Source: a virus | DNA: 64,000 nt | IMG/VR virus record: IMGVR_UViG_3300047316_000726 | Coordinates: 6,949-70,948 of that record | Reading direction: 5' to 3' (one strand) | Shown here: in pieces, positions 9,648 to 37,348 of the stretch | Position numbering within the stretch: the first letter of the stretch is position 1 | How the letters are laid out: each line of letters starts with the position of its first letter | The notes under the pieces: generated by a model | Database searches by the model: none | The model's input: only the letters and a program-made list of their open reading frames with translations | Told to the model about the DNA's origin: nothing | Made by a program: the position numbers and the translations under genes

Positions 9648-12137
9648 CTAATAGATCGGGACGGTTGTGACGCCCATGACGCTGTACGTCGAATCGCCCA
9701 TTACCCACGCTGATGGCACGAACACGGGGGACAATTGCAGGTCTATTGTCCAGTACGGTGTCGACGAGTTGATGTTGATCGAGTGGTTGATCTGTTCCAC
9801 GTAGTAGTTGCCGCTGATCGTGACTCCGTTGACGCGGCGAGTGACCGTCACCCGCTGCGAGATCTCCAGGGCCAGTACGACGGGCCACATCCCCGCGTTG
9901 CCCAACGGGTTCAAGGTGAGCTTCCGAATTCGGGCTTTCGGGGTGCCGTATCGTTGCAGGTAGAAGATTGCTGCCTGCCCAAGGTCGAAGTCGGTGTTGA
10001 CCTGCAACTGCTGCGTCAGAATCCGCTGTCCGTACGCGGCCTGTGAGGTCGCGTTCATTTGCGGCGCGTACATCTGGTTTGCGGGTCGACCCAGGTTCGC
10101 CTGTGAGTACACGTAAGTTGGGTCGAGGTCGTACTCGAGGTTCTCGTACGGCAGTTCGCCGATCCCGTCGCCAAAGGTTGCGACGCTGGATTGTGTCGCG
10201 TACCTGCCGGATCGGTCTTCGAACACAATCACGCCAGTCCGGTCGGCATACACCAGCCCGTTCTCGGTGTTGCAGATTTCCTGCAGCACGTCCAGCATGC
10301 TGCGTGTGGTGTACCCGAAATCGGCCGCCAGCTGGATGTAGCCAGCCGCAACAGACTTGGGGCCACCCCAGTACTGGGTGAGCAGGCGCGCGACCCTAGT
10401 GCCCGACAGTTCCCCGATGTAACCGATACCTCGCTGGTAGTGCGCGGCCCGGGTGGTCGAGCCGATATCTCGGGTGTAGACCGCGACACGGGACGCCGAC
10501 ATCTGAGCCTGCGCTGAGCCGAGTCCCGTATAGCCGTTGAACTCGACGGTGTTGAACCCGATATTGTGGGCATTGGCGAAAGGTGACGAGATCGCGAGTT
10601 CGACGCCATCCAGGGTCAGGGTGACCCCCGGCGTCCCGCCGCCCAGGTCAGTGAGGGTGATTGCGTAGTAGTGCCAGGCGCCGTCGGCATAGCGATTGAC
10701 CGCGGGGTTCACCTGGTCGAGGGTGTACAACTTGAGGGTAGCCGTATCCTGGTCGTACAAAGAGAAGGCGATCTGTTCGACGATGCCAATGTAGTTGGTG
10801 ATCTCCAGGATGCTGCCCGCGGCCGGAGTCGTGGACGTCAGATCGAACGCCTGGGACAGTTGGAACAGACCCAGAGTTCCAGATATCGCTTTGAACCATC
10901 CCTCCACTGTGGTTCCGGTCGTAGACAGGCTCAGTGGGCTGCCGATCATCTCCAACACGGTCCGGTTATTGGGCACGCCTCCAGTTACCGGAACCGGGTT
11001 GCCGGGGTTCTTCTGCGTAAGTGATACCGCCGGCGTGCCGTCCTGGACACTGTCACCGGTCCACTGGATCGACCCGTTGGACGAGTTCGGCAGCTCATAC
11101 GGCACGAACGACTCGGTTTTGATTCCCCCTAGCGCACCCTGCACCGATGAAGTTTTGTTGTTGAGCGGCAGGTAGAACCGCGGGCTGTCACCGGTGATCG
11201 TGAGGTCATAGCCCTGCGAGATCGCCGCCCTCGACAGCGGCGCCAGCGCGTCCACGCACTCCAGCGGCCGCACACCCCGAAATCCCTGGTCGGTCCACGT
11301 CTGCGGCCAGCGCTCGACGTAGCCGGTGTAGATCGGGTACAGCTTCGGCCCGCTGGTCGTGAACGCACTGGCCGCTACCCCGAACTCGAGCTGGGTCGCA
11401 TCCACATAGAACGTCGGCGTCGCCGTCACGCTGCCGTAGACGGTGACGGCCTCAAGGGTGTCAACACAGTTCCACGTGATCGACAGCCGGGTCCATGTGT
11501 TCTGTGTGGACGCCGTGGCCGATGTGTGAATGACACCGCCGTCGTCGGCGACCTGCGCGGTGACCGAGCATCCACCGGTGGGATAGACGTAGACGGAGAA
11601 CGTGTAGGTGATCGGCGGGGTCGTGGGGAACGTGTTGACCACGCCACGGGTGACGCCAGCGGAGGACTGGGTGACCAACAGGCTCTTGGTGCCCGAGAAA
11701 TGCTGGGCGCTGGACACAACGCAGGTGGTGGTTCCACCTGCTGGCGCCCATAGGCCGGTGGTGGTCTCGAAACTCGGGTCGTAGCCGGTGTTGACACCGG
11801 AGTTGATGATGTTGCCGCTCCCGACCGCGGTCGGCCACATCACGGGAATCTGAACACACCGGTACGGCAGGATCGTCTGTGCGCCCGAGTTGAAGACGCT
11901 GCCGGTGTTGCTGGGGTTGAGCTGCTCCTGCGGGTCAAGAACCGTGACCTGCGCGGTCCCAGCCTCGCAGACCGCGAGTTCGTACTGGCGGCCACGTCCT
12001 GTGGCGACCTGTCCGATCCCCAACCCGCGGCGTTGCAAGCTCATCCGCGCCGCGCCGGGCAGGTTCGGCGGCCCCTGCGTGTTGTCGACCTGCACATCCA
12101 CCAACGGCCACGACGAATTGGGCAAGATCGTGGCCAT
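9648..12137 (-). CDS. Large minor tail protein with CBM-like and LamG/concanavalin-like inserts
   Basis: Directly after tape measure; PSFE...W...G.KSL...YTFSVYV...FYVDA.QLE (CBM4/9-like) and VEGWFK...DGAWHYYAIT..LDGV (LamG-like). Confidence 0.75.
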   Translation of the reverse strand: MATILPNSSWPLVDVQVDNTQGPPNLPGAARMSLQRRGLGIGQVATGRGRQYELAVCEAGTAQVTVLDPQEQLNPSNTGSVFNSGAQTILPYRCVQIPVMWPTAVGSGNIINSGVNTGYDPSFETTTGLWAPAGGTTTCVVSSAQHFSGTKSLLVTQSSAGVTRGVVNTFPTTPPITYTFSVYVYPTGGCSVTAQVADDGGVIHTSATASTQNTWTRLSITWNCVDTLEAVTVYGSVTATPTFYVDATQLEFGVAASAFTTSGPKLYPIYTGYVERWPQTWTDQGFRGVRPLECVDALAPLSRAAISQGYDLTITGDSPRFYLPLNNKTSSVQGALGGIKTESFVPYELPNSSNGSIQWTGDSVQDGTPAVSLTQKNPGNPVPVTGGVPNNRTVLEMIGSPLSLSTTGTTVEGWFKAISGTLGLFQLSQAFDLTSTTPAAGSILEITNYIGIVEQIAFSLYDQDTATLKLYTLDQVNPAVNRYADGAWHYYAITLTDLGGGTPGVTLTLDGVELAISSPFANAHNIGFNTVEFNGYTGLGSAQAQMSASRVAVYTRDIGSTTRAAHYQRGIGYIGELSGTRVARLLTQYWGGPKSVAAGYIQLAADFGYTTRSMLDVLQEICNTENGLVYADRTGVIVFEDRSGRYATQSSVATFGDGIGELPYENLEYDLDPTYVYSQANLGRPANQMYAPQMNATSQAAYGQRILTQQLQVNTDFDLGQAAIFYLQRYGTPKARIRKLTLNPLGNAGMWPVVLALEISQRVTVTRRVNGVTISGNYYVEQINHSININSSTPYWTIDLQLSPVFVPSAWVMGDSTYSVMGVTTVPIY

Positions 12138-15100
12138 CAGAACTGCACCGCCGTCCCCTGCCCAAGACCGTTACCGACGTTCCGCCCTGCGTGCTGTAGA
12201 ACGATGTCCTGGATGTAGCGGCGCAGATCCCCTTGGTGCACAAGGTTTCCCTGCACGGTGAGCTGGAACACGATCGGCTGCGCACCGCCGTTTCGACTGC
12301 CGGCCCCTCCGCCGCTGGCGAATGCCGGGTTGAGCGACATGCCTGTGCTCGAGGAGAGCGGGACAGCGCCGACCATGGACGACATGGCTGCGGCGACAGT
12401 GGCCTGCTGCGACATCAGCCCGGTCGCGACCATGCGGCCGACGGTCGCGCCGGCCAATTCCGGCGAACCCTTACCCGAGAGTGGGCCTTCCTTCGCAGGG
12501 CTGTGTGGCAGCCGGTTGCTCATCGCGCCGGCCAGGTTATTCGCGGCCAATTCGACGTTGAGGACCTGTGCGGAAATTCCGCGAGCGAAATTCGCGCCCA
12601 CGCTGCTGCCTGAGGCAAAAGCGGAACCGACCACGCCCCACAGCGGACCCACACCGGTGTTGGCCAACTGGCCTGCGGTGGCGGATACCGTGGGGACGGA
12701 GTTCGCGATTCCTCCGGCGTAGTTGTTACCAACAGCGGCCCCGGCAGTGCCCGCCGCCGGGATCACGCCCCATAGGGGGCCTGTGCCCGAGTTTGCCAGT
12801 TTCCCGGCGCTGGACTGAACCTGCGGTAGCGTATTCGCGATGCCTGTCGCGTAACTATTTCCTGCCGCCGAGCCGGCCGTTCCGGCGGGAGGGGTCGCGC
12901 CATTCATTGTGGCGACCAATCGGCTCACAACCTCGTCTCCTGCCGCGTCCACGGCTTGACGACCGGTCAGGATTCCAGAACCGAACTTGTCCGCGATTGC
13001 GCGCCCGGCTGGCGTGGGGTCAAATAGCCGGAAACTATCGCCGACGTCGCCTGTTACCTTGGTTGCGGCATCCAGTGCGTCCCCGACGGCGTTCTTCATC
13101 CCTTCGGAGAAGTCCCGCGTGGTCTTCATTCCTGCGGTTGTCCAGTGCTGCTCTGAAAATACTTGCTGGATTGATTGCGTTAGTGCGGTTGCCGCGGCGG
13201 TCGTGCCGGAAATCCCAGATCGGATAGCGTCGCTCAGATGTTTCGTGTACGTGTCGCCGATCGAGGCTGCGAATTCTTTGTTGAAGTCGGCTGCGCTGGT
13301 CATGGTGCCGTTGAGAGAGTTGACCGCGTCGGCCCCGGCCTTCGAGGCATCCGTCATATTACTGCCGAGATTTTTGAACGCGTCCCCGAGTTCCCGGAAG
13401 CCCTGCTGCGCTTGGTCCGTGTTACCGGAGGTAATGCCATGCATGATGTCTTGAAGGGCATTGAATCCCATGCCCACGGACGTGACCGCGTTGATGATCA
13501 ACTGAAGGGCGTTCGACACACCCTTAGCGAAAGCGTCCATCGTGTCCTTGTTGCTGACGATGGTGTTGATGCTATCGAGGAAGTCCTTCAGCTTCGGCAG
13601 GACGGCTGTGCCGATCTTGATGGCGAGCGATTCGAGGGTGCCCTTGAACTCCGAGAACTTCTGGTTGAAAGTGGACTGCACATCAGACCACCCCTTGACG
13701 CTGCCATCTGCCTCTGTGGCGGCACCGGCGACGGCCCTGATCGCCGTGTTCGTTGTGTCTGCGTTCTCGCCGGTCAGCATCAGCGCCGTGTTCAACGTGG
13801 TGGAGTCGCCGGTAGCCCGCTTGAGGGCGTCCGCGAACGCGAGTGCGTCGGGGTTGCCCTGCTTGAGCATCGTCGAGAAACCGGTAGCCCGGTTCGCGGT
13901 CGTCTCGAACTGCTTGCCCAGGTTTGCCATCTCCGGCGGCAAACCCTTGATGGCCTTCGTCAGATCGCCTGCGGAAACGGAACCCTTCAGGTATTCCTGG
14001 GCCACGTTCTTGACCGACGCGGGCATCTTGTCCATCATCTGCTGGAGAGCCTGCGCCGCATCCTTGGAGTCGTTGAATGCATTGACAACAATTTTCCCGG
14101 CCGGGCCCATGTGGTCGGAGATGGTCTTCTCGATCAATTGCAGCGTGCCTGACAAGCCGCGTTCGCCCAGCTTGGACGACAGGTCCTGGGCGGACAAACC
14201 CAGCTCGCCGAGCATGTCGCGCTGTCCCTGTGTAGTGGTTTGCAGGTGCTGAATTGTGTGCGCCAGGTTTTGTGACGCCTGATCGGCCGACATTCCGTGG
14301 ATTGTCATGCTGGCGAGGTCGCCAAGGATGTCGTTCAGAGAGATGTGGCTGGCGGAAGCGACCGGAAGCACAGAGTGCAATGCGCCGGTGAATTCTTCGA
14401 ATGTAGACTTTCCGGCGCCGACCGCGGCGACGAGTTTGCTCGTGACCAGCGCGGAGTCTTCCGCCTTGAGGTGATAGTCCTGCAATACGCTCGTGACTGC
14501 GTCGGTGACTTTCACCAGATCCGCATTCTCGGCCTTGGCGCCCTGTGCCGCCGCTTGCAATACCTTGAGTCCGTCGGCGCCGTGCTGGCCGCCGGACTCG
14601 ACCGTGTACATCGCTTTCGAGAGTTCCTCGGCCGAATACCCGACAGATCCAGCCATCGCAAGGATTCCGTCGCGGACCAGGCCGAGGTTGTCGTGCGTCT
14701 CCCCTGCGGAGGTGACCAGTCGGTTGGTGGATGATTCGAAGTCGGCGGCCATCTTGACCGTGCCCGCGCCGACAGCGACTGCGGCAAGAGCGACACCGAT
14801 GCCGACCTTGCCCAACCGTGCCACCGCGCCGTCGGTGGCCGCCGCGTTCGCGACCGCGGATTCGTCAGTCTTGGCCGCGAGCGCCGTGATGGACTTCGCC
14901 GCGCGGGCGTCCGCGGCTTCCATCTCGGTGGCGACCTTCGCGGTCTCGGCCCGCATCGCCTCCATCGCGGCCGCGTAGTCGACCGCTGCTTTGTCTGCGG
15001 TCGCGGCAACGGACTCCACGGAGGTGTTGAGCCGCAGGACCTCGGCTTCTACAGATGCGGTGAGTTCAGCGGTCGCCGCCGCGACGGCTTCGTTGGCGGC

Positions 15101-15430
15101 GATCTCCTTCGCCGCGGCTTCCTCCGCTGCGGTGGCCGCCGCTGCTTCGGCCGCGGCCATCTGTGCTGCCGCAGCTTCTTGTTCGGCTGCTGCAGCGGCC
15201 GCCCCGGTGCCTCCAACCGCGCCCGCTTCGGCCGCGCCGGCCATCGCCGCCGCGTCGGCGGCGCCTCCGCCACCGATGGACGCCATGCGGGCGTCAAGTT
15301 CGGCGATCTGCACGGTGGTGGCCTCGACGAACGCGGCCATGCGCGCTTCTGCCTCGGTGAGCATCGCGGCATACCCGGCCATGTCCCCAGCCAGCACTGC
15401 CACAACAGGGGCAAGGAATTCCTCAGACAC
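12137..15430 (-). CDS. Tape measure protein (TP901-like core)
   Basis: 1097 aa, Ala-rich helical; AADFES...ELSKAMY...LKVL.AAAQGAKA core; located after the chaperone genes. Confidence 0.9.
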   Translation of the reverse strand: MSEEFLAPVVAVLAGDMAGYAAMLTEAEARMAAFVEATTVQIAELDARMASIGGGGAADAAAMAGAAEAGAVGGTGAAAAAAEQEAAAAQMAAAEAAAATAAEEAAAKEIAANEAVAAATAELTASVEAEVLRLNTSVESVAATADKAAVDYAAAMEAMRAETAKVATEMEAADARAAKSITALAAKTDESAVANAAATDGAVARLGKVGIGVALAAVAVGAGTVKMAADFESSTNRLVTSAGETHDNLGLVRDGILAMAGSVGYSAEELSKAMYTVESGGQHGADGLKVLQAAAQGAKAENADLVKVTDAVTSVLQDYHLKAEDSALVTSKLVAAVGAGKSTFEEFTGALHSVLPVASASHISLNDILGDLASMTIHGMSADQASQNLAHTIQHLQTTTQGQRDMLGELGLSAQDLSSKLGERGLSGTLQLIEKTISDHMGPAGKIVVNAFNDSKDAAQALQQMMDKMPASVKNVAQEYLKGSVSAGDLTKAIKGLPPEMANLGKQFETTANRATGFSTMLKQGNPDALAFADALKRATGDSTTLNTALMLTGENADTTNTAIRAVAGAATEADGSVKGWSDVQSTFNQKFSEFKGTLESLAIKIGTAVLPKLKDFLDSINTIVSNKDTMDAFAKGVSNALQLIINAVTSVGMGFNALQDIMHGITSGNTDQAQQGFRELGDAFKNLGSNMTDASKAGADAVNSLNGTMTSAADFNKEFAASIGDTYTKHLSDAIRSGISGTTAAATALTQSIQQVFSEQHWTTAGMKTTRDFSEGMKNAVGDALDAATKVTGDVGDSFRLFDPTPAGRAIADKFGSGILTGRQAVDAAGDEVVSRLVATMNGATPPAGTAGSAAGNSYATGIANTLPQVQSSAGKLANSGTGPLWGVIPAAGTAGAAVGNNYAGGIANSVPTVSATAGQLANTGVGPLWGVVGSAFASGSSVGANFARGISAQVLNVELAANNLAGAMSNRLPHSPAKEGPLSGKGSPELAGATVGRMVATGLMSQQATVAAAMSSMVGAVPLSSSTGMSLNPAFASGGGAGSRNGGAQPIVFQLTVQGNLVHQGDLRRYIQDIVLQHAGRNVGNGLGQGTAVQF

Positions 15431-15907: not shown

Positions 15908-16147
15908 CTACGGGGGGCGGTTGGTGTCGTGTGCGGCCTCGGCACGGACGGCGGCGACCGTGGGGATTCGGGCCACCAGCCACGCCGGGAGGTCGGCCTT
16001 CTGCGCGGGGGTGAGGTGGTACTCGCGCAGCCACCACTCGGCGTCAGCGGCCCGCTCGAGCAGTTCGGGCTCGCCGGGGTGAGGTGGGTTGTTGTCGAAA
16101 CTCCAGCCCGCGAACCGTGCTCTCAGTCGTTCGCGGGCGCGGTAGGG
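15908..16147 (-). CDS. Tail assembly chaperone C-terminal extension (-1 frame, G/GT-like)
   Basis: Protein-like -1 frame (PYRARERLRARF...WWLREYHLTPAQ..DLPAWL) with no start of its own, overlapping the chaperone 3' end. Confidence 0.6.
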   Translation of the reverse strand, partial: PYRARERLRARFAGWSFDNNPPHPGEPELLERAADAEWWLREYHLTPAQKADLPAWLVARIPTVAAVRAEAAHDTNRPP

Positions 16148-16491
16148 GACGCGGGATCGTCGTGGTCGTCGACGGAGGCAGGCTTGGGGAACAACATTTC
16201 CCGCGCCTTGAGGATGTATGGATCCAAGGCATCGGCGTCGCGGATCTTCAATTCCCGCAGCAGCGCGGGATTGTCCGCGGGGAGTGCGTCGGGGTCGGGA
16301 AGGTAGGGGATGTGCCATGCCGCGATGAGCGCGAGCTTGAGGCCGGTGACCAGGTCCCAGCCGAAATGCAGTGGCTTCCCGGCGTCGAACTTTCCGAGTC
16401 GACGTTGGACGTCTTCGCGGTCGCCGTCGCGGAGGTCCTCGGGATCTCTGAGCTCGACCCAGCCCCCTGAGGGCAGTTCGACACGGTCCAT
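16123..16491 (-). CDS. Tail assembly chaperone
   Basis: Small acidic protein right after the tail tube gene. Confidence 0.75.
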   Translation of the reverse strand: MDRVELPSGGWVELRDPEDLRDGDREDVQRRLGKFDAGKPLHFGWDLVTGLKLALIAAWHIPYLPDPDALPADNPALLRELKIRDADALDPYILKAREMLFPKPASVDDHDDPASPTAPAND

Positions 16492-16503
16492 GGCGGAGGG
16501 TCC

Positions 16504-17775
16504 TTACTGGTAGGTGTTGGGGGTGGTGGCGTTGGTGACGGTGGCTTTGACGGGGGATCCGCCGCCGGATCCGCCTGCGTTGGTGGTGTTGGTGATGCCG
16601 TCCCACATGATCTTGTAGCGGATGTTCTCCTTGGAGGCGTCCATCTTCGCGGCGTTGTAGGAGGCCTGGTTGGCGTCGATCTGGAGCTGGATGAGGTTCG
16701 CGCCGGCGAGTCCGTTCCCGACGAGTGCCTGGAACTGCGGCTGCGAATTGTTGATCATGTTGAGGTACTGGGACTCACTGTCCGCAATGATCTCCATCTC
16801 GCCGGCCACATCCACCGCACCGCGCTGGATGATGTACGGCGTCTGCACACCAGACAACGTCCAGTCAGGCTCAAGCTTCCGCTTGAACGTCAGCTTCAAA
16901 CTGGGCAGCGCGTTCACCTTCGTGCCACCCGACGCCGGACCGCCAATACCCACCGCGCCACGCCACGAGGCGATCGGCAGCACCGACGACGGCGCCGACA
17001 CCGGCAGCGCAGGAGCGATCACCGACGGCCAGCTCTGCCACTTCGAGTCGAACTGCACGAGCGACGACTCCGCGTTGAACATCAACGACAGCTCCGAGCA
17101 GCACGCCCCCGGGAACTGCCGGGCCCCGACCGTCGCGGTCACGCCCTGGTAGTGGGTGATCGTGTGCGTCGGAGGCTGACCCTGCCCGTACACCGCGGTA
17201 GCGCCAGAGTTGAGCACGCTGAACGCTGAGGTGTATGGGGCGGTCACCGCGGTCACCGCGACACCTGAGGTGTGCGGGTACAGCAACGACCTTTCCCCGG
17301 CGGCGAACGGGATCGTGTACGGACCTGCGCCGCTGGGCGTACCGGTCTTGCGGATCTCAGCCAGCGCACCGGTGTCGATCTGGATAATCGTCCCCAAAGG
17401 GATGGACGCCGCGGTCGTGATCGACGTGATCGGCGCACCCACCGTCGGCGTTGCTGTCGTGGCCGACAGAGTCGTGGTCGGAGTCGTCGTCGTCCCCGTC
17501 GGAACCAGATCCCCGAACAGGTTCGACAGTACGAACGGCAGCACGTCGCCGAAGAAGTTCCCCGACATCGAGAAGTCGTTGATGAGGGGACCGACCTGAC
17601 GGCCAGCCAGGGGCGACATCCACTGCCGCCAGCCCTTGTCATCCAACCACTTGGGCTTGTCCTCCCAGTCGAACTTTTCGACGATCATGGTGTTGCTCAT
17701 CGCGATGGGTGTTCCGGGCGTCGCCTCCAAGGCGATGCCCACGAACTGCCTGGCGGATGCGTAAGTCGCTGGCAC
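16504..17775 (-). CDS. Major tail (tube) protein with internal insertion
   Basis: FVGIALEATPGTP N-terminus, RQFPGACCSELSL...RGAVDVAGEME, position before the chaperone. Confidence 0.8.
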   Translation of the reverse strand: MPATYASARQFVGIALEATPGTPIAMSNTMIVEKFDWEDKPKWLDDKGWRQWMSPLAGRQVGPLINDFSMSGNFFGDVLPFVLSNLFGDLVPTGTTTTPTTTLSATTATPTVGAPITSITTAASIPLGTIIQIDTGALAEIRKTGTPSGAGPYTIPFAAGERSLLYPHTSGVAVTAVTAPYTSAFSVLNSGATAVYGQGQPPTHTITHYQGVTATVGARQFPGACCSELSLMFNAESSLVQFDSKWQSWPSVIAPALPVSAPSSVLPIASWRGAVGIGGPASGGTKVNALPSLKLTFKRKLEPDWTLSGVQTPYIIQRGAVDVAGEMEIIADSESQYLNMINNSQPQFQALVGNGLAGANLIQLQIDANQASYNAAKMDASKENIRYKIMWDGITNTTNAGGSGGGSPVKATVTNATTPNTYQ

Positions 17776-24502: not shown

Positions 24503-25701
24503 TAGTGGTGCGGCTCAAATCGTCAACCCGGTAATTGATCTTCGCTGGCAGTGAGGTCAGGCTGGTCCCGTAGATCGAGTGCGGGAGGTGGTTGTGGCTC
24601 GTCGTCCAGAGGTGTTCGTCCGGTCGCTGTCGATGGAGGAAGGCCGGAAGCTGCAGCGGGTGACCAGGACCGCGAAGGACCCGGTCAAGATGCGTCGGGC
24701 GATCGTGGTGCTGATGTCCGGCCAAGGGCAGGCGGTCCGGGACATCACGTCATTGCTGCAGGTCAGCGACGACTACGTGCGCGATGTGATCCATGCGTTC
24801 AACGAGCGGGGGTTCGATGCCCTGAACCCAAAATGGAGCGGCGGGCGACCGAAGACGATCGGTGAGCAGATCCGTCAGCGGATCTGTCTGATCGCCCGGA
24901 CGTCTCCCGCCGACTGGGGCATCACCGCGTTCGCGACCTGGTCGCTGTCCAAGCTGGCCACACATCTGATCGACCGCGGCACCGTCGTGGCGATCAGCCG
25001 GGAGACCTTGCGGCGGATCCTGCGTGCCGGTGGTGTGTCGTGGCAGACCACCACGACGTGGAAGGCTTCCACCGACCCGGACTTCATCGCCAAGATGCAC
25101 CGCATCCTTGATCTCTACGATCATCCGCCCACCGATGGCCGGGTGGTGTGCGTGGACGAGTTCGGACCGCTGAACCTGATGCCACGTAAGGGAAAAGCCT
25201 GGCGATTACGCGGCAAGCCGCGGCGGCTGCGGGCGACCTACAACCGCAACGACGGCGTGATGCACATGCTCGCCGCCCTCGACCTGGCCACCGGCAAGAT
25301 CTTCTACCGGATCCGTTCCCGCAAACGCCACCGCGAGTTCCTCGACCTGCTCAAGACCCTGCGGGCACGCTGGCCCGGGGAGAAGCTCTACGTTATCGCC
25401 GACAACTTCTCCCCGCATCGCCACCCGAAGGTCCGCGCGTGGTGCGCCGACCACCACGTCGAGTTGGTGTTCCTGCCGACCTACGGGTCGTGGTTGAACT
25501 GGATCGAGGCCGAGTTCGCCGCGCTGCGGTACTTCGCCCTCAACGGCACCGACCACCGCACCCACACCGAACAGAATGCCGCGATCGAGGCCTACATCCG
25601 CTGGCGCAACGCCCGCACCCACCCCAAGACCGGATTCGCCACCGACTCACCCATCCGAACCTGGACCCATTACCCGGTCAAGGCTGCGTGACACGCCACT
25701 A
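24503..25701 (+). mobile_element. IS630-family insertion sequence
   Basis: Flanked by TA at 24503-24504 and 25700-25701, each in a CTAG context; imperfect terminal IR TAGTGGTGCGGC / TAGTGGCGTGTC. Confidence 0.85.
24594..25691 (+). CDS. tnp: IS630 transposase, intact single ORF
   Basis: N-terminal HTH region; DDE triad VCVDEFG / IADNFSPH / LNWIEAEF; GGAGG RBS. Confidence 0.92.
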   Translation: MARRPEVFVRSLSMEEGRKLQRVTRTAKDPVKMRRAIVVLMSGQGQAVRDITSLLQVSDDYVRDVIHAFNERGFDALNPKWSGGRPKTIGEQIRQRICLIARTSPADWGITAFATWSLSKLATHLIDRGTVVAISRETLRRILRAGGVSWQTTTTWKASTDPDFIAKMHRILDLYDHPPTDGRVVCVDEFGPLNLMPRKGKAWRLRGKPRRLRATYNRNDGVMHMLAALDLATGKIFYRIRSRKRHREFLDLLKTLRARWPGEKLYVIADNFSPHRHPKVRAWCADHHVELVFLPTYGSWLNWIEAEFAALRYFALNGTDHRTHTEQNAAIEAYIRWRNARTHPKTGFATDSPIRTWTHYPVKAA

Positions 25702-28362
25702 GGAGCGGTAGGGGAAGATCGCGCACCGGCACGACGGGTGCTCAGGTGGGCTGTAGGAGCCAGTGGGGAACGGTTGTCCAAACCGGACAGGGGAGCCTGC
25801 CGCGTTTTCCTGACAGCGGGGACAGGCGTCGGCGGCCGCCACCCACTCCAGCTCGGTGAGTCCGTTGAGGCGGGCCAGGTCGTACCGCGTCAACGCCGCG
25901 CCGGACACCGCACGGCTGACCTCGGTCACCGCGATCCGGCCGACCATCGCCTCATCGGTGAGGATGTCGGCCAACTCGGTGCTGAGGTCGTCGACAGTCG
26001 GCTGTCCACCGACCGCATCGGAGAGCGCCTTCGCCACCTCGCGTACCCGGGTGGAGTTGATGCCCTCCGAGATGCGGCCCGCATCGGCCAGGACGTCCTG
26101 CAGCCCCGGATCCATGCCGTTGGCGGCGATGAGCAGTCGAGTCTCGGCAGGACTGCCCGGTGTCCACTCGCCCCAGTCGACTTGTTCGGCACCGGCCAGC
26201 ACCGCCTGTGCAGCCTTGTCACCGACCAGGTAGGCGTCGACGTACAGGCCGAGCAGGACCTTGCGTACCAGCTTGGACACGCTCCAGCCGATGACGATCA
26301 GCCACTGCTCGGCGTCACGCCGCCGATCCTGATCCCCGGCCGCCTTGCGTACCTGCAGCCAGCGTTCAGCGATCGCCCGGGTAGGTGCTCCAGTCAAAGC
26401 CGACCGCAGCACGCCCGCCCAGTACTCGGCGACCTGAAGGTCTTTCTCCCAGGCCGGCCAGTGCCGGCCCCCGACTTTTGGGTCGGCTTCGCCTGCCTTG
26501 AACGCCACCAGACCGAGATCGACCTCATGCAGCATCGCCGTATTCCGGTCGATGTGGACGAACTCGAACGGGCGTCGCTTGGTACGCCCGTTGCGTACCC
26601 ACTTCCAGTAGGCAGCCAACTCCGCCTTGACCAGGTCCGCGGCGAGCGTCTTCCCAGCGGCCCCGGCCGATGCACCGTTTCCTGGCTTGGCTGGCTGCCC
26701 TGCTGGCTTGGCCACAGACTCGTCGTCACCATCTGCCTCGTCGGCGGACCGGTCCGTGGTCACCATGTTCAGCGGCGGCGCCTGCGGCGGAACGATCTCC
26801 TCCCCGGCGGGCGCGAGCAGTGACGCGTCCTCAACGAAGATGATGCCGCGGGCGGTCTGGACCTGTGGCATGTCGGCTTCGTCGAAGTCGTACGGGGCAC
26901 GGCCCATTTCCTCCCGGGCCTCGTTCAGAGTGATCCGCCCGGTCTTGAGCTGGGCCTCCACCACCGCGTCCGCGTTGGCCTGGTCCTCAGCATCGAGCCC
27001 AAGGAACTTGAACTCAAGCTCGCGCGGCATCCCGAGGTGGGTGCGGGAGATGTTGGTGAGCAGCGCCTGCAACCACTGGATCGTCGGGTTGGTGGCCTTG
27101 CGCTCCTGGACGTTCTCCTCGCCCTCGTGGAACCCGGCAGACCCCAGGCCCTTGGACTCGGTGAAACCGAGTTCGCTCATGGTGACGTCGAAGTGCATCG
27201 CCACGAGCTTGATCAGGTGCAGGTGGTAGTCCGGCTTGAACTTCTCCGGGATGTCCGCAGTGGGGATCGGCTCCATGCCCGGGGGCAGGAGGTGGTAGCG
27301 CATTCGGCTGAGCGTCTGGCCGGCATACAGGTCGTTGAACGCGCGGCTGTAGTCCGCCAACTGCTGGGGCGTCCACTGCTCCATGCCGGTGTTCTTGATC
27401 CAGCCGCTGGGGGCGACCCCATCGGTGTACTGGGCCTTGTCCCACTCCAGGCGGCGCAGGTACAGGTCGCAGTCCTGCAGGGCCTGCTCCACCGCCGAGT
27501 ACCCGTACGGGGTGATGGTGCGCACCGCACGGCGCCGGTAGATCAACCGGTCCGAGTCGAATCCGTTCAGGACGGTCCCGTCCTCGTCGGTGTCCGCGAT
27601 GAACTCGCCACGAGGAAAGCCCCACAGCACCTGCTGATAGGCCGGGTTCGGCGCCAACGGGCGTCCACCGAGGTGATCGAGCAACGGCTTGACCGTGGAC
27701 CCGTCGAGGATCCGCAAGCCCTGCTTGGCCTTGGCACGGTCCTGGAACGGCCAGATCGCGACGGCGTCGAGGACCAGGTGCTCCTCGAGGAGCTTCGAGA
27801 TCCAGTCGACCCAGGTCTCCCCCTGGTGGAAGTCCGGCATCTCCCAGAAGTCGCAGATGCGGGACACCTCGGGATCGAGCTGCTCTCGCAGGCGCCGCTG
27901 GATTTCCACACTGGACGTGTCTGGGTCCACCTTGCGGTGGGCCTGCATTGCCCGCTTGGTGACGACGATGTCCCATTCCAGGCTGGATATCTCGTTGGTA
28001 CGAATGCGGATGCAGTCCCGCACGACGGGGATCTCCGCAGCGTCGCGCAAAACTTTCCACGGGATGACCCGGTCGGTCATGCCCGGCAGGTTCATCGAGA
28101 CCGGGTACTCGTAGATCCGCGGCTCGGGGCGCCCACTCGCGGGGTTGAGCGGGTCGATGGCCCCGGTCTGCATCGGGATCCCGGGCCCGAACGGTACATG
28201 CGGCTCGGTGCGCGGCAGCGGGGTCGCGAGCTGTCCGGTGGACACGGTCTGCTGGTTCTGCAGCAGGGCCTGTACCTGGCCGGCGGTGAACGTCGCCGCC
28301 GGCTGGACGTGCTGACGGGGCGCCTTTTGGACCTGAGGAGAACGGCGTCGGCGCCTAGCCAC
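25699..28362 (-). CDS. Portal protein fused to MuF-like minor head domain
   Basis: Portal features (LVLDAVAIW, LDGSTVKPL, YGYSAVEQ, GRITLNEARE) followed by the MuF C-terminal signature EWVAA..ACPRCQEN...F......PPEHPSCRC. Confidence 0.85.
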   Translation of the reverse strand: MARRRRRSPQVQKAPRQHVQPAATFTAGQVQALLQNQQTVSTGQLATPLPRTEPHVPFGPGIPMQTGAIDPLNPASGRPEPRIYEYPVSMNLPGMTDRVIPWKVLRDAAEIPVVRDCIRIRTNEISSLEWDIVVTKRAMQAHRKVDPDTSSVEIQRRLREQLDPEVSRICDFWEMPDFHQGETWVDWISKLLEEHLVLDAVAIWPFQDRAKAKQGLRILDGSTVKPLLDHLGGRPLAPNPAYQQVLWGFPRGEFIADTDEDGTVLNGFDSDRLIYRRRAVRTITPYGYSAVEQALQDCDLYLRRLEWDKAQYTDGVAPSGWIKNTGMEQWTPQQLADYSRAFNDLYAGQTLSRMRYHLLPPGMEPIPTADIPEKFKPDYHLHLIKLVAMHFDVTMSELGFTESKGLGSAGFHEGEENVQERKATNPTIQWLQALLTNISRTHLGMPRELEFKFLGLDAEDQANADAVVEAQLKTGRITLNEAREEMGRAPYDFDEADMPQVQTARGIIFVEDASLLAPAGEEIVPPQAPPLNMVTTDRSADEADGDDESVAKPAGQPAKPGNGASAGAAGKTLAADLVKAELAAYWKWVRNGRTKRRPFEFVHIDRNTAMLHEVDLGLVAFKAGEADPKVGGRHWPAWEKDLQVAEYWAGVLRSALTGAPTRAIAERWLQVRKAAGDQDRRRDAEQWLIVIGWSVSKLVRKVLLGLYVDAYLVGDKAAQAVLAGAEQVDWGEWTPGSPAETRLLIAANGMDPGLQDVLADAGRISEGINSTRVREVAKALSDAVGGQPTVDDLSTELADILTDEAMVGRIAVTEVSRAVSGAALTRYDLARLNGLTELEWVAAADACPRCQENAAGSPVRFGQPFPTGSYSPPEHPSCRCAIFPYRS

Positions 28363-28390: not shown

Positions 28391-29860
28391 TCAGCTGGCT
28401 TGGTGGTTGAGGAGCTGGTCGAGGAATCCGGTCGCTGAGCCGTCCAGCAGCAGCCGTGTGATGGCTTGGGTCATCGTGTCGACCTGGTCGTCGTGGGCGG
28501 CGGTGGGAAATCCGGCGCATTCCTCGACGAAGTCCAGAATCCACGGCGCCCGTGCCGCGGCGGGTAGATGGACGTTGCCCGCTTCGATGAACGGTGACAC
28601 CGCGGCGACCCTGGCGGCCTTGGAGTCCTTGGGGTTGATCGGGACCATGCCGGGCACCTTCTGCCGCAACTGGGCGATCACCGCAGGCCCGTTGGCTTTG
28701 TCTTCCACCAGTTTCAGTGCCGCTTGCGGCCACTTCGCTGACAGGGCCTGGACCGCGCGGCAGGTGGTCGGAAAGTCCATGCGATCCCGTACCTGGTCGA
28801 GGAGGAACACCTCTGCCCCACGACGCGCCCACACCTGCCCGACCACGTAGTCCGACGCATCGGTGTCCTTGAACGTCATGTCCCAGGACTGGATGACGGT
28901 GTCCATGGCGTGGGCGACCATCGTGCCGTCGGCCTTGGCGTAGGCGGCGGGTGCGTCGTCGTAGCGCCACCACGCCCGCTTGAGCAGGCCGCCCTCCGCA
29001 GGTGCGGGACGGCCCTGGCACAGGGCGGTGAACCCGCGGGCGCCGAAGTTCTTGCGGCGCTTCTCCCATCCGGCTGTCGAGCGGCCGCGCGCGGATTCCA
29101 GCCACTCGCCTGGTTCCCGACCGAGCGGGTCGAGTTCACCCTTGGCTGGGTCGTGGTCGGCCAGCGCGGGGATGTTGACCACATGCCAGTCTTCGGGGTA
29201 CTCGGCGAGCAGCCAGCCGGCGAGGTCGTCCTCGTGCCAGCGGGTCATGACCACGACGACTGGGGTGTGCTCGCCGAGGCGGGCGTTGACCGTTTCCCGC
29301 CACCATTCCTTGGCGTCCTCGCGGTAGGTCTCGGAGTCGGCCTCGGCGCGGCCCTTGACCGGATCGTCGATGATCATGAGATCAACAGGTCGGCCGGTCA
29401 GCGCCCCACCTACGCCAGCGCAGTAGACGCCGCCGGTATGGCCATCCAGCTCCCACTCGTGCGCGGCCGCAGTATCGGCCTTCACCTTCAGGCCCAAATC
29501 GGGGTGGGCCTTGATCTCGTTGCGGATCGCCCGACCCCACCGGCGTGCGGTGCCCAACTCGTAGGAGGCGATCGCGATCCGCAGGTCCGGGTTGCGCAGC
29601 AGCATCCACAGCGGAAACCAGCGGGACACCCGCTGCGACTTCCCTTCCTGCGGGGGCATGAACCACATGAGCCGGTCGACGCGCGCCTCGGCGACCTCGA
29701 CCAACTGCTCGTCGAGCAGTTGCAGTGCCGGCGTCTGGATGGTGACGCGCGGATACAGTGCCGCAGCGAGGGCGCCGGGCGTCGGGTAGGCGGGCCGCTC
29801 GTCGGACTCTAGGTCGGCTTCGATCTGGTCGGCGGCGCGAGAGAGAACACCCACACCCAC
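28391..29860 (-). CDS. terL: Terminase large subunit
   Basis: MPPQEGKS Walker A, LMIIDDPVK Walker B, VVVVMTRWHEDDL, nuclease SWDMTFKD..SDY and HDDQVD. Confidence 0.95.
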   Translation of the reverse strand: MGVGVLSRAADQIEADLESDERPAYPTPGALAAALYPRVTIQTPALQLLDEQLVEVAEARVDRLMWFMPPQEGKSQRVSRWFPLWMLLRNPDLRIAIASYELGTARRWGRAIRNEIKAHPDLGLKVKADTAAAHEWELDGHTGGVYCAGVGGALTGRPVDLMIIDDPVKGRAEADSETYREDAKEWWRETVNARLGEHTPVVVVMTRWHEDDLAGWLLAEYPEDWHVVNIPALADHDPAKGELDPLGREPGEWLESARGRSTAGWEKRRKNFGARGFTALCQGRPAPAEGGLLKRAWWRYDDAPAAYAKADGTMVAHAMDTVIQSWDMTFKDTDASDYVVGQVWARRGAEVFLLDQVRDRMDFPTTCRAVQALSAKWPQAALKLVEDKANGPAVIAQLRQKVPGMVPINPKDSKAARVAAVSPFIEAGNVHLPAAARAPWILDFVEECAGFPTAAHDDQVDTMTQAITRLLLDGSATGFLDQLLNHQAS

Positions 29861-37246: not shown

Positions 37247-37274
37247 GTGGACCTCCACTGTCGATCAGAGCGAG

Positions 37275-37348
37275 TGACGAGAGCGGGATTCGAACCCGCA
37301 ACGATGCGGGTTTGAGCCGCACGCCTCTGCCAGTTGGGCTACCCCGCC
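37275..37348 (-). tRNA. tRNA-Leu(CAA), short variable loop, CCA not encoded
   Basis: Cloverleaf GGCGGGG-TA-GCCC AACTGGCAGA GGC-G-TGCGG CTCAAAC CCGCA-TCGTT-GCGGG TTCGAAT CCCGC-TCTCGTC-A. Confidence 0.85.

What the first reader, a model, noticed from the sequence alone, without database searches (positions are those of the whole stretch)
26366..26482. Probable programmed -1 frameshift at the portal/MuF junction, giving portal with or without MuF
Seen: at the domain boundary (...EADPK-VGGRHW...) the - strand reads C CCA AAA in the correct X XXY YYZ phase (26482-26476), using CCA and AAA codons that are rare in this high-GC DNA. Six nt later is a 7-bp all-GC stem, GGCCGGC-ACTG-GCCGGCC. The -1 frame adds 36 aa and stops at TGA (26368-26366), giving ~665 aa versus the 887-aa fusion. 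Known: heptamer plus spacer plus stem is the classical -1 signal; portals are dodecamers while MuF proteins are low-copy. Inference: recoding sets how many portal subunits carry the MuF domain, a control normally described for tail chaperones and some capsid/tail genes.
Basis: partly seen in the sequence, partly recalled or inferred. Interest (0 to 1): 0.8.

Follow-up and report, generated by a model that had tools for sequence, protein, structure and literature searches.

The report
Conserved frameshift site splitting portal from MuF
This phage's portal gene is fused to the MuF head-protein gene, and the junction holds a ribosome-slipping signal kept in more than 120 related phages and prophages, so the phage very probably makes its portal both with and without MuF from one gene, a recoding event I found described nowhere.

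Summary
C_CCA_AAA sits at 26482-26476 (- strand) in X_XXY_YYZ phase. A 6-nt spacer and a 7-bp GC hairpin follow, and the -1 frame stops after 36 codons (665 aa against 887 aa).

Taken alone the site is no better than chance: 0.61 copies of CCCAAAAG are expected per window, and the hairpin z-score is -1.78. The comparative evidence decides it.

- Of 123 non-identical homologous junctions (27-70% protein identity), all carry XXXAAAA, and 119 have it in -1 slip phase with the portal frame.
- G follows the heptamer in 121 of 123.
- The codons used are rare: CCA is 7.6% of Pro codons and AAA 16.5% of Lys codons.
- Two variants keep the slippery pattern: T_TTA_AAA and G_GGA_AAA.
- In 15 junctions MuF lies in the -1 frame, mostly with no start codon. 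This arose at least five separate times.
- In in-frame genes the -1 frame stops early (median 8 codons against 62) and a downstream hairpin is enriched.
- Relatives without MuF lack the heptamer.
- The cultured Arthrobacter phages Sonali and Mufasa8 carry the same cassette.

Verdict: a dnaX-like programmed -1 frameshift, not annotated and not published as far as I could find. No protein data exist. Earlier notes from this scan reported portal-to-MuF frameshifts in other phage lineages, all of the fusing kind.

The parts
25699..28362 (-). Portal-MuF fusion ORF, 887 aa, the zero-frame product (P0001)
   Evidence: ORF list and translation. PF04860 at residues 112-487 and PF04233 at 775-882. phrog_2662 'portal protein' covers residues 72-882, E 7e-87.
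26902..28029 (-). Portal domain (residues 112-487)
   Evidence: Pfam PF04860, 42.6 bits against a cutoff of 39.1.
26497..26646 (-). Small conserved module (residues 573-622, motif AELAAYxKWxRNG..RRPFxF) that ends the portal-only product. Relatives without MuF end just after it.
   Evidence: AlphaFold2 gives an ordered helix and strands at 569-621, between two disordered stretches. The motif is conserved. The MuF-less portals P0017 and P0038 end '...RVAFADCAS*' and '...RVTFPA*'.
26488..26493 (-). Position of the family's upstream RGTGRY element, a possible Shine-Dalgarno-like stimulator. In this window it is the weak version GGCGAA.
   Evidence: RGTGRY lies at -11..-6 in 52 of 123 junctions, against 0.19% of in-frame positions elsewhere in the same genes. 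The anchored logo shows G at -14, -11 and -8 and T at -9. The window sequence is read.
26475..26482 (-). Slippery heptamer C_CCA_AAA (26482-26476) plus the conserved following G (26475)
   Evidence: Phase checked. XXXAAAA is present at all 123 unique homologous junctions, with G next in 121. It carries 1.7-2.0 bits per position, while most flanking positions carry less than 1 bit.
26452..26469 (-). Downstream stimulatory hairpin: 7-bp all-GC stem, 4-nt loop, 6 nt after the heptamer. Its 3' arm encodes the conserved W-P-A of MuF.
   Evidence: Fold of -19.4 kcal/mol, z -1.78. The 50 nt downstream fall in the lowest 1% of windows of the same gene. Across the family the in-frame class averages -20.1 against -13.6 kcal/mol. 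The linker is complementary to the WPGW arm, mean z -1.13, p 5e-10.
26366..26476 (-). -1 frame tail: 36 codons (SRGPALAGLGER...YPGDR) and stop TGA at 26368-26366. Product is 629 + 36 = 665 aa.
   Evidence: Translation. In all 82 unique in-frame relatives tested the -1 frame stops within 55 codons, median 8 against 62 at other positions.
25702..26451 (-). MuF (SPP1 gp7-like minor head protein) domain, residues 638-887, present only in the zero-frame product
   Evidence: The AlphaFold2 model is mostly above pLDDT 90 from residue 638. Residues 623-632, which include the slip-site codons, fall below pLDDT 50. PF04233 at 775-882 and phrog_115 minor head protein.

Best explanation
The junction of the portal-MuF gene is a programmed -1 ribosomal frameshift cassette of the bacterial dnaX type.

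Ribosomes that keep the zero frame make the 887-aa portal-MuF fusion. With tRNA-Pro on CCA and tRNA-Lys on AAA, held up by the GC hairpin 6 nt downstream, a fraction slip back one base to CCC_AAA. They then read 36 out-of-frame codons and stop, giving a 665-aa portal without MuF. This shorter product ends where the portals of MuF-less relatives end.

One gene therefore supplies both plain and MuF-carrying portal subunits in a ratio set by slip efficiency.

Shown here: the signal itself, its nucleotide-level conservation and covariation, and the interchangeable in-frame and -1-frame arrangements among relatives.

Inferred: that slipping really happens, how efficient it is, and that the ratio sets the number of MuF copies (and of any cargo fused to MuF) per portal dodecamer.
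For: 1. Conservation. Among 123 non-identical junction contexts from IMG/VR, GTDB genomes, metagenomes and assemblies (27-70% protein identity), XXXAAAA sits at the junction in all. It is in X_XXY_YYZ phase with the portal frame in 119, and G follows in 121.

2. Rare codons. CCA is 7.6% of Pro codons, AAA 16.5% of Lys codons and TTA 0.34% of Leu codons in these genes. Of 394 conserved amino-acid columns, only three have an A/T-ending major codon. Two are this P (CCA 95%) and this K (AAA 100%); the third is a Gly GGT seven alignment columns upstream of the P.

3. Covariation that keeps the site slippery. L116 has GAT-TTA-AAA-G (T_TTA_AAA). L055, L056, L066/L099 and L147 have CTG-GGA-AAA-G (G_GGA_AAA).

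4. Reversed arrangement. In 15 distinct junctions MuF is in the -1 frame. The zero frame stops 3-24 codons after the heptamer. The frame overlap is 22-187 nt and always holds the heptamer. Eleven of the 15 have no ATG/GTG/TTG in the -1 frame there. On the portal tree this arrangement arose at least 5 times, nested among in-frame relatives, one of them inside the window's own 12-member clade.

5. Early -1 stops. In in-frame genes the -1 frame stops a median of 8 codons after the shift against 62 elsewhere. 34% stop within 2 codons against 6.4%.

6. Downstream structure. In the in-frame class the mean is -20.1 against -13.6 kcal/mol, and 61% fall in the lowest decile. The variable linker is complementary to the conserved WPGW-coding arm.

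7. Upstream element. RGTGRY at -11 is enriched more than 200-fold.

8. Link to MuF. Close relatives whose portal lacks MuF (L108, L110) lack the heptamer and end a few residues before its position.

9. Domain boundary. The slip codons lie in a 10-residue low-confidence linker between folded modules.

10. Cultured phages. Arthrobacter phages Sonali and Mufasa8 (about 26% identity) have GGTGGT, C_CCA_AAA_G, a 6-bp hairpin and a -1 stop after 9 codons.

11. Precedent. E. coli dnaX uses the same logic, and the roles of the two frames are reversed in some bacteria (PMC5009743).
Against: - There is no direct evidence of two proteins, a trans-frame peptide or ribosome slippage. All support is comparative.
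- In the window alone the heptamer and hairpin are within chance, and its upstream element is the weak GGCGAA.
- One lineage of in-frame fusions (L039/L041, L135/L137) has no slippery heptamer, so the recoding is not obligatory.
- Four junctions (L059, L061, L062, L143) have the portal in the CCC_AAA_A phase with MuF in the +1 frame. A -1 slip cannot explain these.
- X_XXA_AAA efficiency in Actinobacteria, which have two Lys tRNAs, is not known to me.
- The fusing class shows no hairpin enrichment.
Confidence: 0.85

Rival explanations
1. Relic signal. The ancestor needed a -1 frameshift to join portal to MuF. In in-frame fusions such as this window the genes have merged, and the heptamer persists without function.
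For: Fusing-type relatives exist and are scattered over the tree. One in-frame lineage lives without the heptamer.
Against: About 100 distinct in-frame junctions keep rare codons unchanged while synonymous sites elsewhere are saturated. Early -1 stops and strong hairpins are enriched specifically in the in-frame class. The variants T_TTA_AAA and G_GGA_AAA arose inside in-frame genes and stayed slippery.
Confidence: 0.06
2. Protein-level or pausing constraint. Pro-Lys is a conserved residue pair, for example a protease cleavage site that releases MuF, or the rare codons slow translation at a domain boundary. No frameshift is involved.
For: P-K is nearly invariant in the protein alignment, and the site lies in an interdomain linker.
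Against: This does not explain why the preceding codon always ends in the matching base. It does not explain why P changes to L or G only together with that base. It does not explain why the next base is G in 121 of 123 junctions, why MuF is in the -1 frame without a start codon in 15 junctions, or why -1 stops are enriched.
Confidence: 0.03
3. Another nucleic-acid signal. The conserved octamer could be a recombination or module-exchange junction, a protein-binding site presented in a hairpin loop, or an internal start region for a separate MuF.
For: The motif is conserved whatever the frame arrangement, including four junctions where it is out of -1 phase and is followed by an in-frame GTG.
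Against: A stem enclosing the heptamer is no better than with shuffled partners (-6.17 against -6.11 kcal/mol). No start codon follows in most junctions; the next codon is GCN, GTC or GGN. Phase with the portal frame is kept in 119 of 123 junctions.
Confidence: 0.03
4. Transcriptional slippage by RNA polymerase on the A4 run produces the frame change, not ribosomal slippage.
For: The A run is invariant. Another note from this scan reports A9/A10 runs at portal-MuF junctions of other phages.
Against: Four A's are far shorter than the runs of about nine A/T known to give productive slippage in bacteria (PMC5009743). The XXX requirement and the phase conservation are properties of tRNA re-pairing, not of polymerase slippage.
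Confidence: 0.02

Closest known systems
E. coli dnaX tau/gamma programmed -1 frameshift (as reviewed in PMC5009743)
   Same: [quoted passage not shown] A downstream stem-loop and a possible upstream rRNA-pairing element. The shifted ribosome stops soon after and makes a truncated protein lacking the C-terminal domains. In some taxa the roles are reversed, and the long product then needs the shift.
   Different: A different gene (virion portal and minor head protein, not a clamp-loader subunit) and a different heptamer (C_CCA_AAA_G, not A_AAA_AAG). The hosts are high-GC Actinobacteria. In this window the -1 tail is 36 codons, not 1. Efficiency is unknown.
Lambda G/GT-type tail assembly chaperone -1 frameshift (Xu, Hendrix and Duda 2004, as cited in PMC7302621 and PMC7911831)
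   Same: A conserved -1 slip in a phage structural operon that makes two proteins sharing an N-terminus in a fixed ratio. It was recognised mainly by comparative genomics.
   Different: There the shift extends the protein, and it concerns tail chaperones that are not in the virion. Here, in the window, the shift truncates a virion protein. Only the minority 'fusing' relatives resemble G/GT in layout.
Single-ORF portal-MuF fusion genes of actinobacteriophages (Microbacterium subclusters EA3, EA5, EA8 and cluster EB, PMC7302621; Arthrobacter phage Sonali gene 3, annotated 'portal and MuF-like fusion protein')
   Same: The same domain architecture. Sonali and Mufasa8 are distant homologues (about 26% identity) and carry the same cassette.
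   Different: These genes are annotated and discussed as plain fusions. No frameshift is mentioned in the paper or in the records. I did not examine the Microbacterium phages.
Portal-to-MuF frameshifts noted earlier in this scan (Bacteroidales Mu-like prophages, Bacillus-type, marine and soil phages; unpublished AI notes)
   Same: The same gene pair and the same idea: some portal subunits are made covalently joined to MuF by recoding.
   Different: All of those are the fusing layout, with other slip sites (T runs, A9/A10 runs, other heptamers) in unrelated lineages. This family is actinobacterial, mostly in-frame with a truncating shift, and switches between the two layouts. I did not re-test those notes.

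Membership tests
Programmed -1 ribosomal frameshift cassette (bacterial, dnaX/IS911 type) | X_XXY_YYZ slippery heptamer in phase with the upstream reading frame | tested here: met
   C_CCA_AAA at 26482-26476 in phase. The phase is kept in 119 of 123 unique homologous junctions.
Programmed -1 ribosomal frameshift cassette (bacterial, dnaX/IS911 type) | Nucleotide-level conservation of the heptamer beyond what the protein requires | tested here: met
   Rare codons CCA and AAA are fixed. The covarying variants T_TTA_AAA and G_GGA_AAA keep the pattern. The logo gives 1.7-2.0 bits at the octamer, with most flanking positions below 1 bit.
Programmed -1 ribosomal frameshift cassette (bacterial, dnaX/IS911 type) | Stimulatory RNA structure about 5-9 nt downstream | tested here: met
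   The window has a 7-bp GC hairpin after a 6-nt spacer, -19.4 kcal/mol, though its z-score is only -1.78 on its own. Across the family it is enriched in the in-frame class. It is not enriched in the fusing class.
Programmed -1 ribosomal frameshift cassette (bacterial, dnaX/IS911 type) | Upstream Shine-Dalgarno-like stimulator (present in dnaX, optional in other cases) | tested here: inconclusive
   RGTGRY at -11 occurs in 52 of 123 junctions against a 0.19% background. That it pairs with the 16S 3' end (AUCACC) is my inference from general knowledge. The window itself has GGCGAA.
Programmed -1 ribosomal frameshift cassette (bacterial, dnaX/IS911 type) | Two protein products sharing an N-terminus are actually made | not testable with these tools
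   No proteomic, ribosome-profiling or reporter data were available.
Programmed -1 ribosomal frameshift cassette (bacterial, dnaX/IS911 type) | The alternative frame gives a defined, biologically sensible product | tested here: met
   The -1 product (665 aa) ends within a few residues of where MuF-less homologous portals end. In 15 relatives the -1 frame carries the whole MuF.
Phage portal protein (Pfam PF04860) | Profile match above the curated cutoff | tested here: met
   42.6 bits against a cutoff of 39.1, residues 112-487. phrog_2662 and phrog_12 are portal families. The gene lies directly downstream of the large terminase gene at 28391-29860.
Phage Mu F / SPP1 gp7 minor head protein (Pfam PF04233) | Profile match above the curated cutoff | tested here: inconclusive
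   29.1 bits against a cutoff of 29.6 for the window's protein, residues 775-882, so just below. It is supported by phrog_115 minor head protein at E 2e-10, by homologues precomputed with PF04233, and by P0073 at 41.1 bits.

The most novel reading that the evidence does not exclude
The portal dodecamer of these phages may be heteromeric by design. A frameshift at a fixed site would set how many of the twelve subunits carry MuF and whatever is fused behind it, up to ADP-ribosyltransferase toxins and ORFs of more than 1000 codons.

The strength of the stimulators would be tuned to the gene layout. In-frame genes pair the heptamer with a strong hairpin, so many ribosomes shift and make plain portal. 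Split genes have no hairpin enrichment, so few ribosomes shift and make the fusion. Both layouts would then give a minority of MuF-bearing subunits.

A one-base indel in the linker could flip the layout without killing the phage, which would explain at least five independent flips.
Probability: 0.45. Interest if true: 0.85.

Novelty: new member of a known kind. Interest (0 to 1): 0.75.

Why it matters
The portal is the single vertex through which DNA enters and leaves every tailed-phage head. MuF/gp7 proteins are low-copy internal head proteins, and in many phages they deliver toxin or effector domains.

A conserved recoding signal at their junction means the ratio of plain to MuF-carrying portal subunits is written into the mRNA. 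That would explain how a 12-copy protein and a low-copy protein can share one gene.

It also means that several hundred database genes annotated as plain 'portal' or 'portal and MuF-like fusion' proteins, and the 'start-less' MuF ORFs beside some portals, are incompletely annotated.

The family offers a natural experiment. The same slip site is used in the truncating layout and in the fusing layout, as in dnaX. It also includes cultured, non-pathogenic Arthrobacter phages in which the prediction can be tested directly.

It adds a well-supported case to the short list of conserved frameshifts in phage head genes. The comprehensive 2016 recoding review (PMC5009743) does not contain the word 'portal'.

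Tried and rejected
- Nucleotide search of the gene against the phage collection found nothing.
- Hairpin enclosing the heptamer in its loop. Several junctions looked that way by eye, but the energy is no better than with shuffled partners (-6.17 against -6.11 +/- 0.17 kcal/mol). Rejected.
- Synonymous versus non-synonymous counts, to show that MuF is under selection in the +1-class loci. This was uninformative, because the MuF-frame ORF there runs on for more than 1000 codons and aligns poorly. An earlier run timed out.
- The idea that the upstream T-rich codons exist to place a -1-frame stop (TGA) before the site. GGTGGT, which makes no stop, is the commonest form, so this is rejected in favour of an rRNA-pairing element, which remains untested.
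- Exceptions examined:
  - L039/L041/L135/L137 are in-frame fusions with no in-phase heptamer.
  - L081 has a separate MuF ORF with its own ATG.
  - L075, L079, L105, L108 and L110 have no MuF.
  - L173, L191, L192, L196 and L197 have other architectures.
- Brevundimonas phage Strzyga's portal-MuF gene has no in-phase heptamer at all. Thermoanaerobacterium phage THSA-485A is too A-rich to judge.
- Literature searches for a portal/MuF frameshift found no report.
Full report
**1. The observation**

The - strand ORF 28362..25699 encodes an 887-aa protein. It has a portal domain (PF04860, residues 112-487) and a MuF/SPP1-gp7 domain (PF04233, residues 775-882, just under the Pfam cutoff). A single PHROG, phrog_2662, spans both.

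The gene lies directly downstream of the large terminase gene (28391-29860). It sits in a siphovirus-type structural module that includes a head protease-like gene and a tape measure gene.

Codons D627-P628-K629 read GAC-CCA-AAA. That gives C_CCA_AAA at 26482-26476 in X_XXY_YYZ phase. A 6-nt spacer (GTCGGG) follows, then a 7-bp all-GC hairpin with loop ACTG at 26469-26452.

After a -1 slip the ribosome would read 36 codons (SRGPALAGLGER...YPGDR) and stop at TGA 26368-26366, giving 665 aa.

Taken alone the site is not remarkable:
- CCCAAAAG is expected 0.61 times per window.
- In-phase slippery heptamers occur 0-4 times per gene here.
- The hairpin's z-score is -1.78.

**2. Relatives**

The protein has hundreds of homologues. 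Most are 860-920-aa portal-MuF fusions in prophages of Streptomyces and other Actinomycetota and in soil metagenomes.

I fetched DNA for 200 loci from IMG/VR, GTDB genomes, JGI metagenomes and assemblies. I placed the portal and MuF reading frames by tblastn. After removing identical contexts, 123 distinct junctions remain.

*The heptamer is conserved as nucleotides.*
- All 123 junctions carry XXXAAAA at the junction. In 119 it is in X_XXY_YYZ phase with the portal frame.
- The next base is G in 121 of 123.
- Anchored on the heptamer, the octamer carries 1.7-2.0 bits per position. Most flanking positions carry less than 1 bit, except for a periodic upstream pattern.
- In these genes CCA is 7.6% of Pro codons, AAA is 16.5% of Lys codons, and 49% of third positions are C. 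C-CCA-AAA would therefore be expected at under 1% of x-Pro-Lys sites.
- In a codon alignment of 82 unique in-frame genes, only three of 394 conserved amino-acid columns have an A/T-ending codon as the major codon. These are this Pro (CCA 95%), this Lys (AAA 100% of 78) and a Gly (GGT) seven alignment columns upstream of the Pro.

*The heptamer covaries.*
- L116 (61% identical to the window's protein) reads GAT-TTA-AAA-G. Pro has become Leu and the preceding wobble base has become T, giving T_TTA_AAA with the rarest Leu codon (0.34%).
- A clade of more distant relatives (L055, L056, L066/L099, L147) reads CTG-GGA-AAA-G, that is G_GGA_AAA.
- The amino acid changes but the slippery pattern does not.

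*The frames can be swapped.*
- In 15 distinct junctions the portal frame passes through C_CCA_AAA in phase and stops 3-24 codons later, while MuF continues in the -1 frame for 165-517 codons.
- The overlap between the last upstream -1-frame stop and the zero-frame stop is 22-187 nt and always contains the heptamer.
- In 11 of the 15 there is no ATG, GTG or TTG in the -1 frame in that stretch.
- Two of the 15 are in isolate genomes (Acrocarpospora catenulata and Actinomadura harenae), so they are not metagenome assembly artefacts.
- On a portal tree the five such loci included lie in five separate places among in-frame relatives. One (L109) is inside the window's own 12-member clade.

This is the relation described for dnaX. 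E. coli makes gamma by a -1 shift followed by a stop. In some bacteria the roles are reversed, and a single-nucleotide change suffices to reverse them when efficiency is near 50% (PMC5009743).

*The -1 frame is closed quickly in in-frame genes.* After the shift the -1 frame stops after a median of 8 codons, against 62 at other positions of the same genes. 34% stop within two codons (for example CCC-AAA-AGC-CGG-TGA) against 6.4%. All stop within 55 codons, where only 49% would by chance.

*Stimulators.*
- The 45-50 nt downstream fold better than other windows of the same genes. In the in-frame class the mean is -20.1 against -13.6 kcal/mol, and 61% fall in the lowest decile. The window itself is in the lowest 1%.
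- The 3' arm of the hairpin is the conserved W-P-G/A-W coding sequence at the start of MuF. The 5' arm is the variable linker. The linker is more complementary to the W-P-G/A-W arm than shuffled linkers are (mean z -1.13, p 5e-10; window z -1.58).
- The fusing class shows no such enrichment (-14.6 against -13.7 kcal/mol).
- Upstream, RGTGRY (mostly GGTGGT or GGTGAT) lies at -11..-6 in 52 of 123 junctions, against 0.19% of in-frame positions elsewhere. GGT is only 11% of Gly codons.
- GGUGAU and GGUGGU can pair with the AUCACC stretch just 5' of the anti-Shine-Dalgarno core of 16S rRNA. I therefore read this element as a dnaX-like upstream stimulator. That reading rests on general knowledge and is untested. 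The window has only GGCGAA there.

*The signal goes with MuF.* L108 and L110 are close relatives whose portals end '...RVAFADCAS*' and '...RVTFPA*', with no MuF downstream. They have no heptamer. Their ends fall a few residues before the slip position, so the frameshift product of the window corresponds to a natural complete portal.

*Structure.* An AlphaFold2 model places the slip codons in a 10-residue low-confidence linker (residues 623-632). This linker lies between a small ordered module (about 569-621) and a confidently folded MuF domain (638-887).

*Cultured phages.* Arthrobacter phages Sonali and Mufasa8 are about 26% identical to the window's protein and have a NUDIX insert. They carry GGTGGT, C_CCA_AAA_G in phase (codons 738 and 739), a CCCUCC/GGAGGG hairpin with differing loops and spacers, and a -1 stop after 9 codons. 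Their records annotate a plain fusion or portal protein.

**3. Mechanism**

The best-supported reading is a programmed -1 ribosomal frameshift. Peptidyl-tRNA-Pro on CCA and aminoacyl-tRNA-Lys on AAA re-pair with CCC and AAA while the ribosome is held by the hairpin.

- The zero-frame product is portal-MuF.
- The -1 product is plain portal.

Portals are dodecamers, and MuF/gp7 proteins are low-copy internal head proteins (general knowledge). A fixed translational ratio is therefore a plausible way to load only some subunits with MuF.

Hairpin enrichment is confined to the in-frame layout. This suggests, as inference only, that efficiency is high where shifting removes MuF and low where shifting adds it. 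Both layouts would then give a minority of MuF-bearing subunits.

**4. What does not fit**

- Four junctions (L059, L061, L062, L143) have the portal in the CCC_AAA_A phase and MuF in the +1 frame. A +1 slip of tRNA-Lys on AAA_AGU is possible, and so is initiation at the GUG that follows. I cannot decide between them.
- One lineage of in-frame fusions has no slippery site.
- No protein-level data exist for any member.

**5. Rivals**

- A relic signal is unlikely. Selection is visible within the in-frame class: early -1 stops, hairpins and new slippery variants.
- A Pro-Lys protein motif or a rare-codon pause does not explain the matching upstream base, the following G or the -1-frame MuF genes.
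- A hairpin that presents the octamer in its loop was tested and rejected.
- Transcriptional slippage needs much longer runs.

**6. Novelty**

Portal-MuF fusions are known in actinobacteriophages (PMC7302621). I found no report of a frameshift at the junction, and the 2016 recoding review does not contain the word 'portal'.

Earlier notes from this scan describe portal-to-MuF frameshifts in Bacteroidales Mu-like prophages and in Bacillus-type, marine and soil phages. All are the fusing layout with other slip sites. I did not re-test them. They agree with the general idea and did not shape the analysis here.

The mechanism is a known kind, while the gene family, the truncating layout and the repeated flipping between layouts are new.

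**7. Verdict**

Confidence that this is a functional -1 frameshift site is 0.85, and interest is 0.75.

Noticed in passing
L059:2158-6474, L061:5328-9635, L143:4294-7596 (also L062, L148): In the '+1 class' loci the portal frame reads CCC_AAA_AGT and stops 37 codons later. The MuF frame starts one base further on and stays open for 1098-1438 codons to the end of the locus, so this is a giant MuF-containing ORF. It is unclear how MuF is reached here: a +1 slip on AAA_AGU, or a start at the GTG directly after the heptamer.
   Followed up: partly
L201:301-3672 (protein P0073): A 1123-aa triple fusion of portal, MuF and an ADP-ribosyltransferase exoenzyme domain (PF03496). It carries GGTGGT..C_CCA_AAA_G in phase at codon 625. 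The frameshift would therefore also set how many toxin-domain copies are attached to the portal.
   Followed up: partly
Proteins P0006, P0009, P0017-P0020, P0023, P0025; L117 and L118 (Sonali, Mufasa8): The stretch between the portal core and the slip site is a hotspot for inserted domains. Several relatives have an insert of roughly 100-170 aa with a DGHHR motif and no Pfam match. The Arthrobacter phages have an insert that RefSeq annotates as MutT/NUDIX hydrolase. P0062 additionally has an intein domain.
   Followed up: partly
window 15908-16606 (-), heptamer at 16202: G_GGA_AAT lies in phase in the ORF upstream of the tape measure gene (12137-15430). It is a candidate for the usual tail assembly chaperone G/GT frameshift of this phage.
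   Followed up: no
window 37274-37348 (-): A tRNA-Leu (anticodon CAA) gene is the only tRNA found in the window.
   Followed up: no
L098:5279-5700 (Sphaerisporangium album genome): The junction is in frame with the heptamer intact, but the MuF frame breaks about 100 codons further on. This is probably a decaying prophage copy.
   Followed up: no
L120 (Thermoanaerobacterium phage THSA-485A), codon 536 of gene Tsac_2861: This low-GC relative is a 789-aa portal-MuF fusion. It has A_AAA_AAA_G in phase near the portal/MuF junction, with a -1 stop after 7 codons. It cannot be judged in such an A-rich gene.
   Followed up: no
L108:29-2083; the no-DNA contig listed for P0038: The large terminase genes beside some related portals carry an intein (PF14890 together with Terminase_6C).
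   Followed up: no
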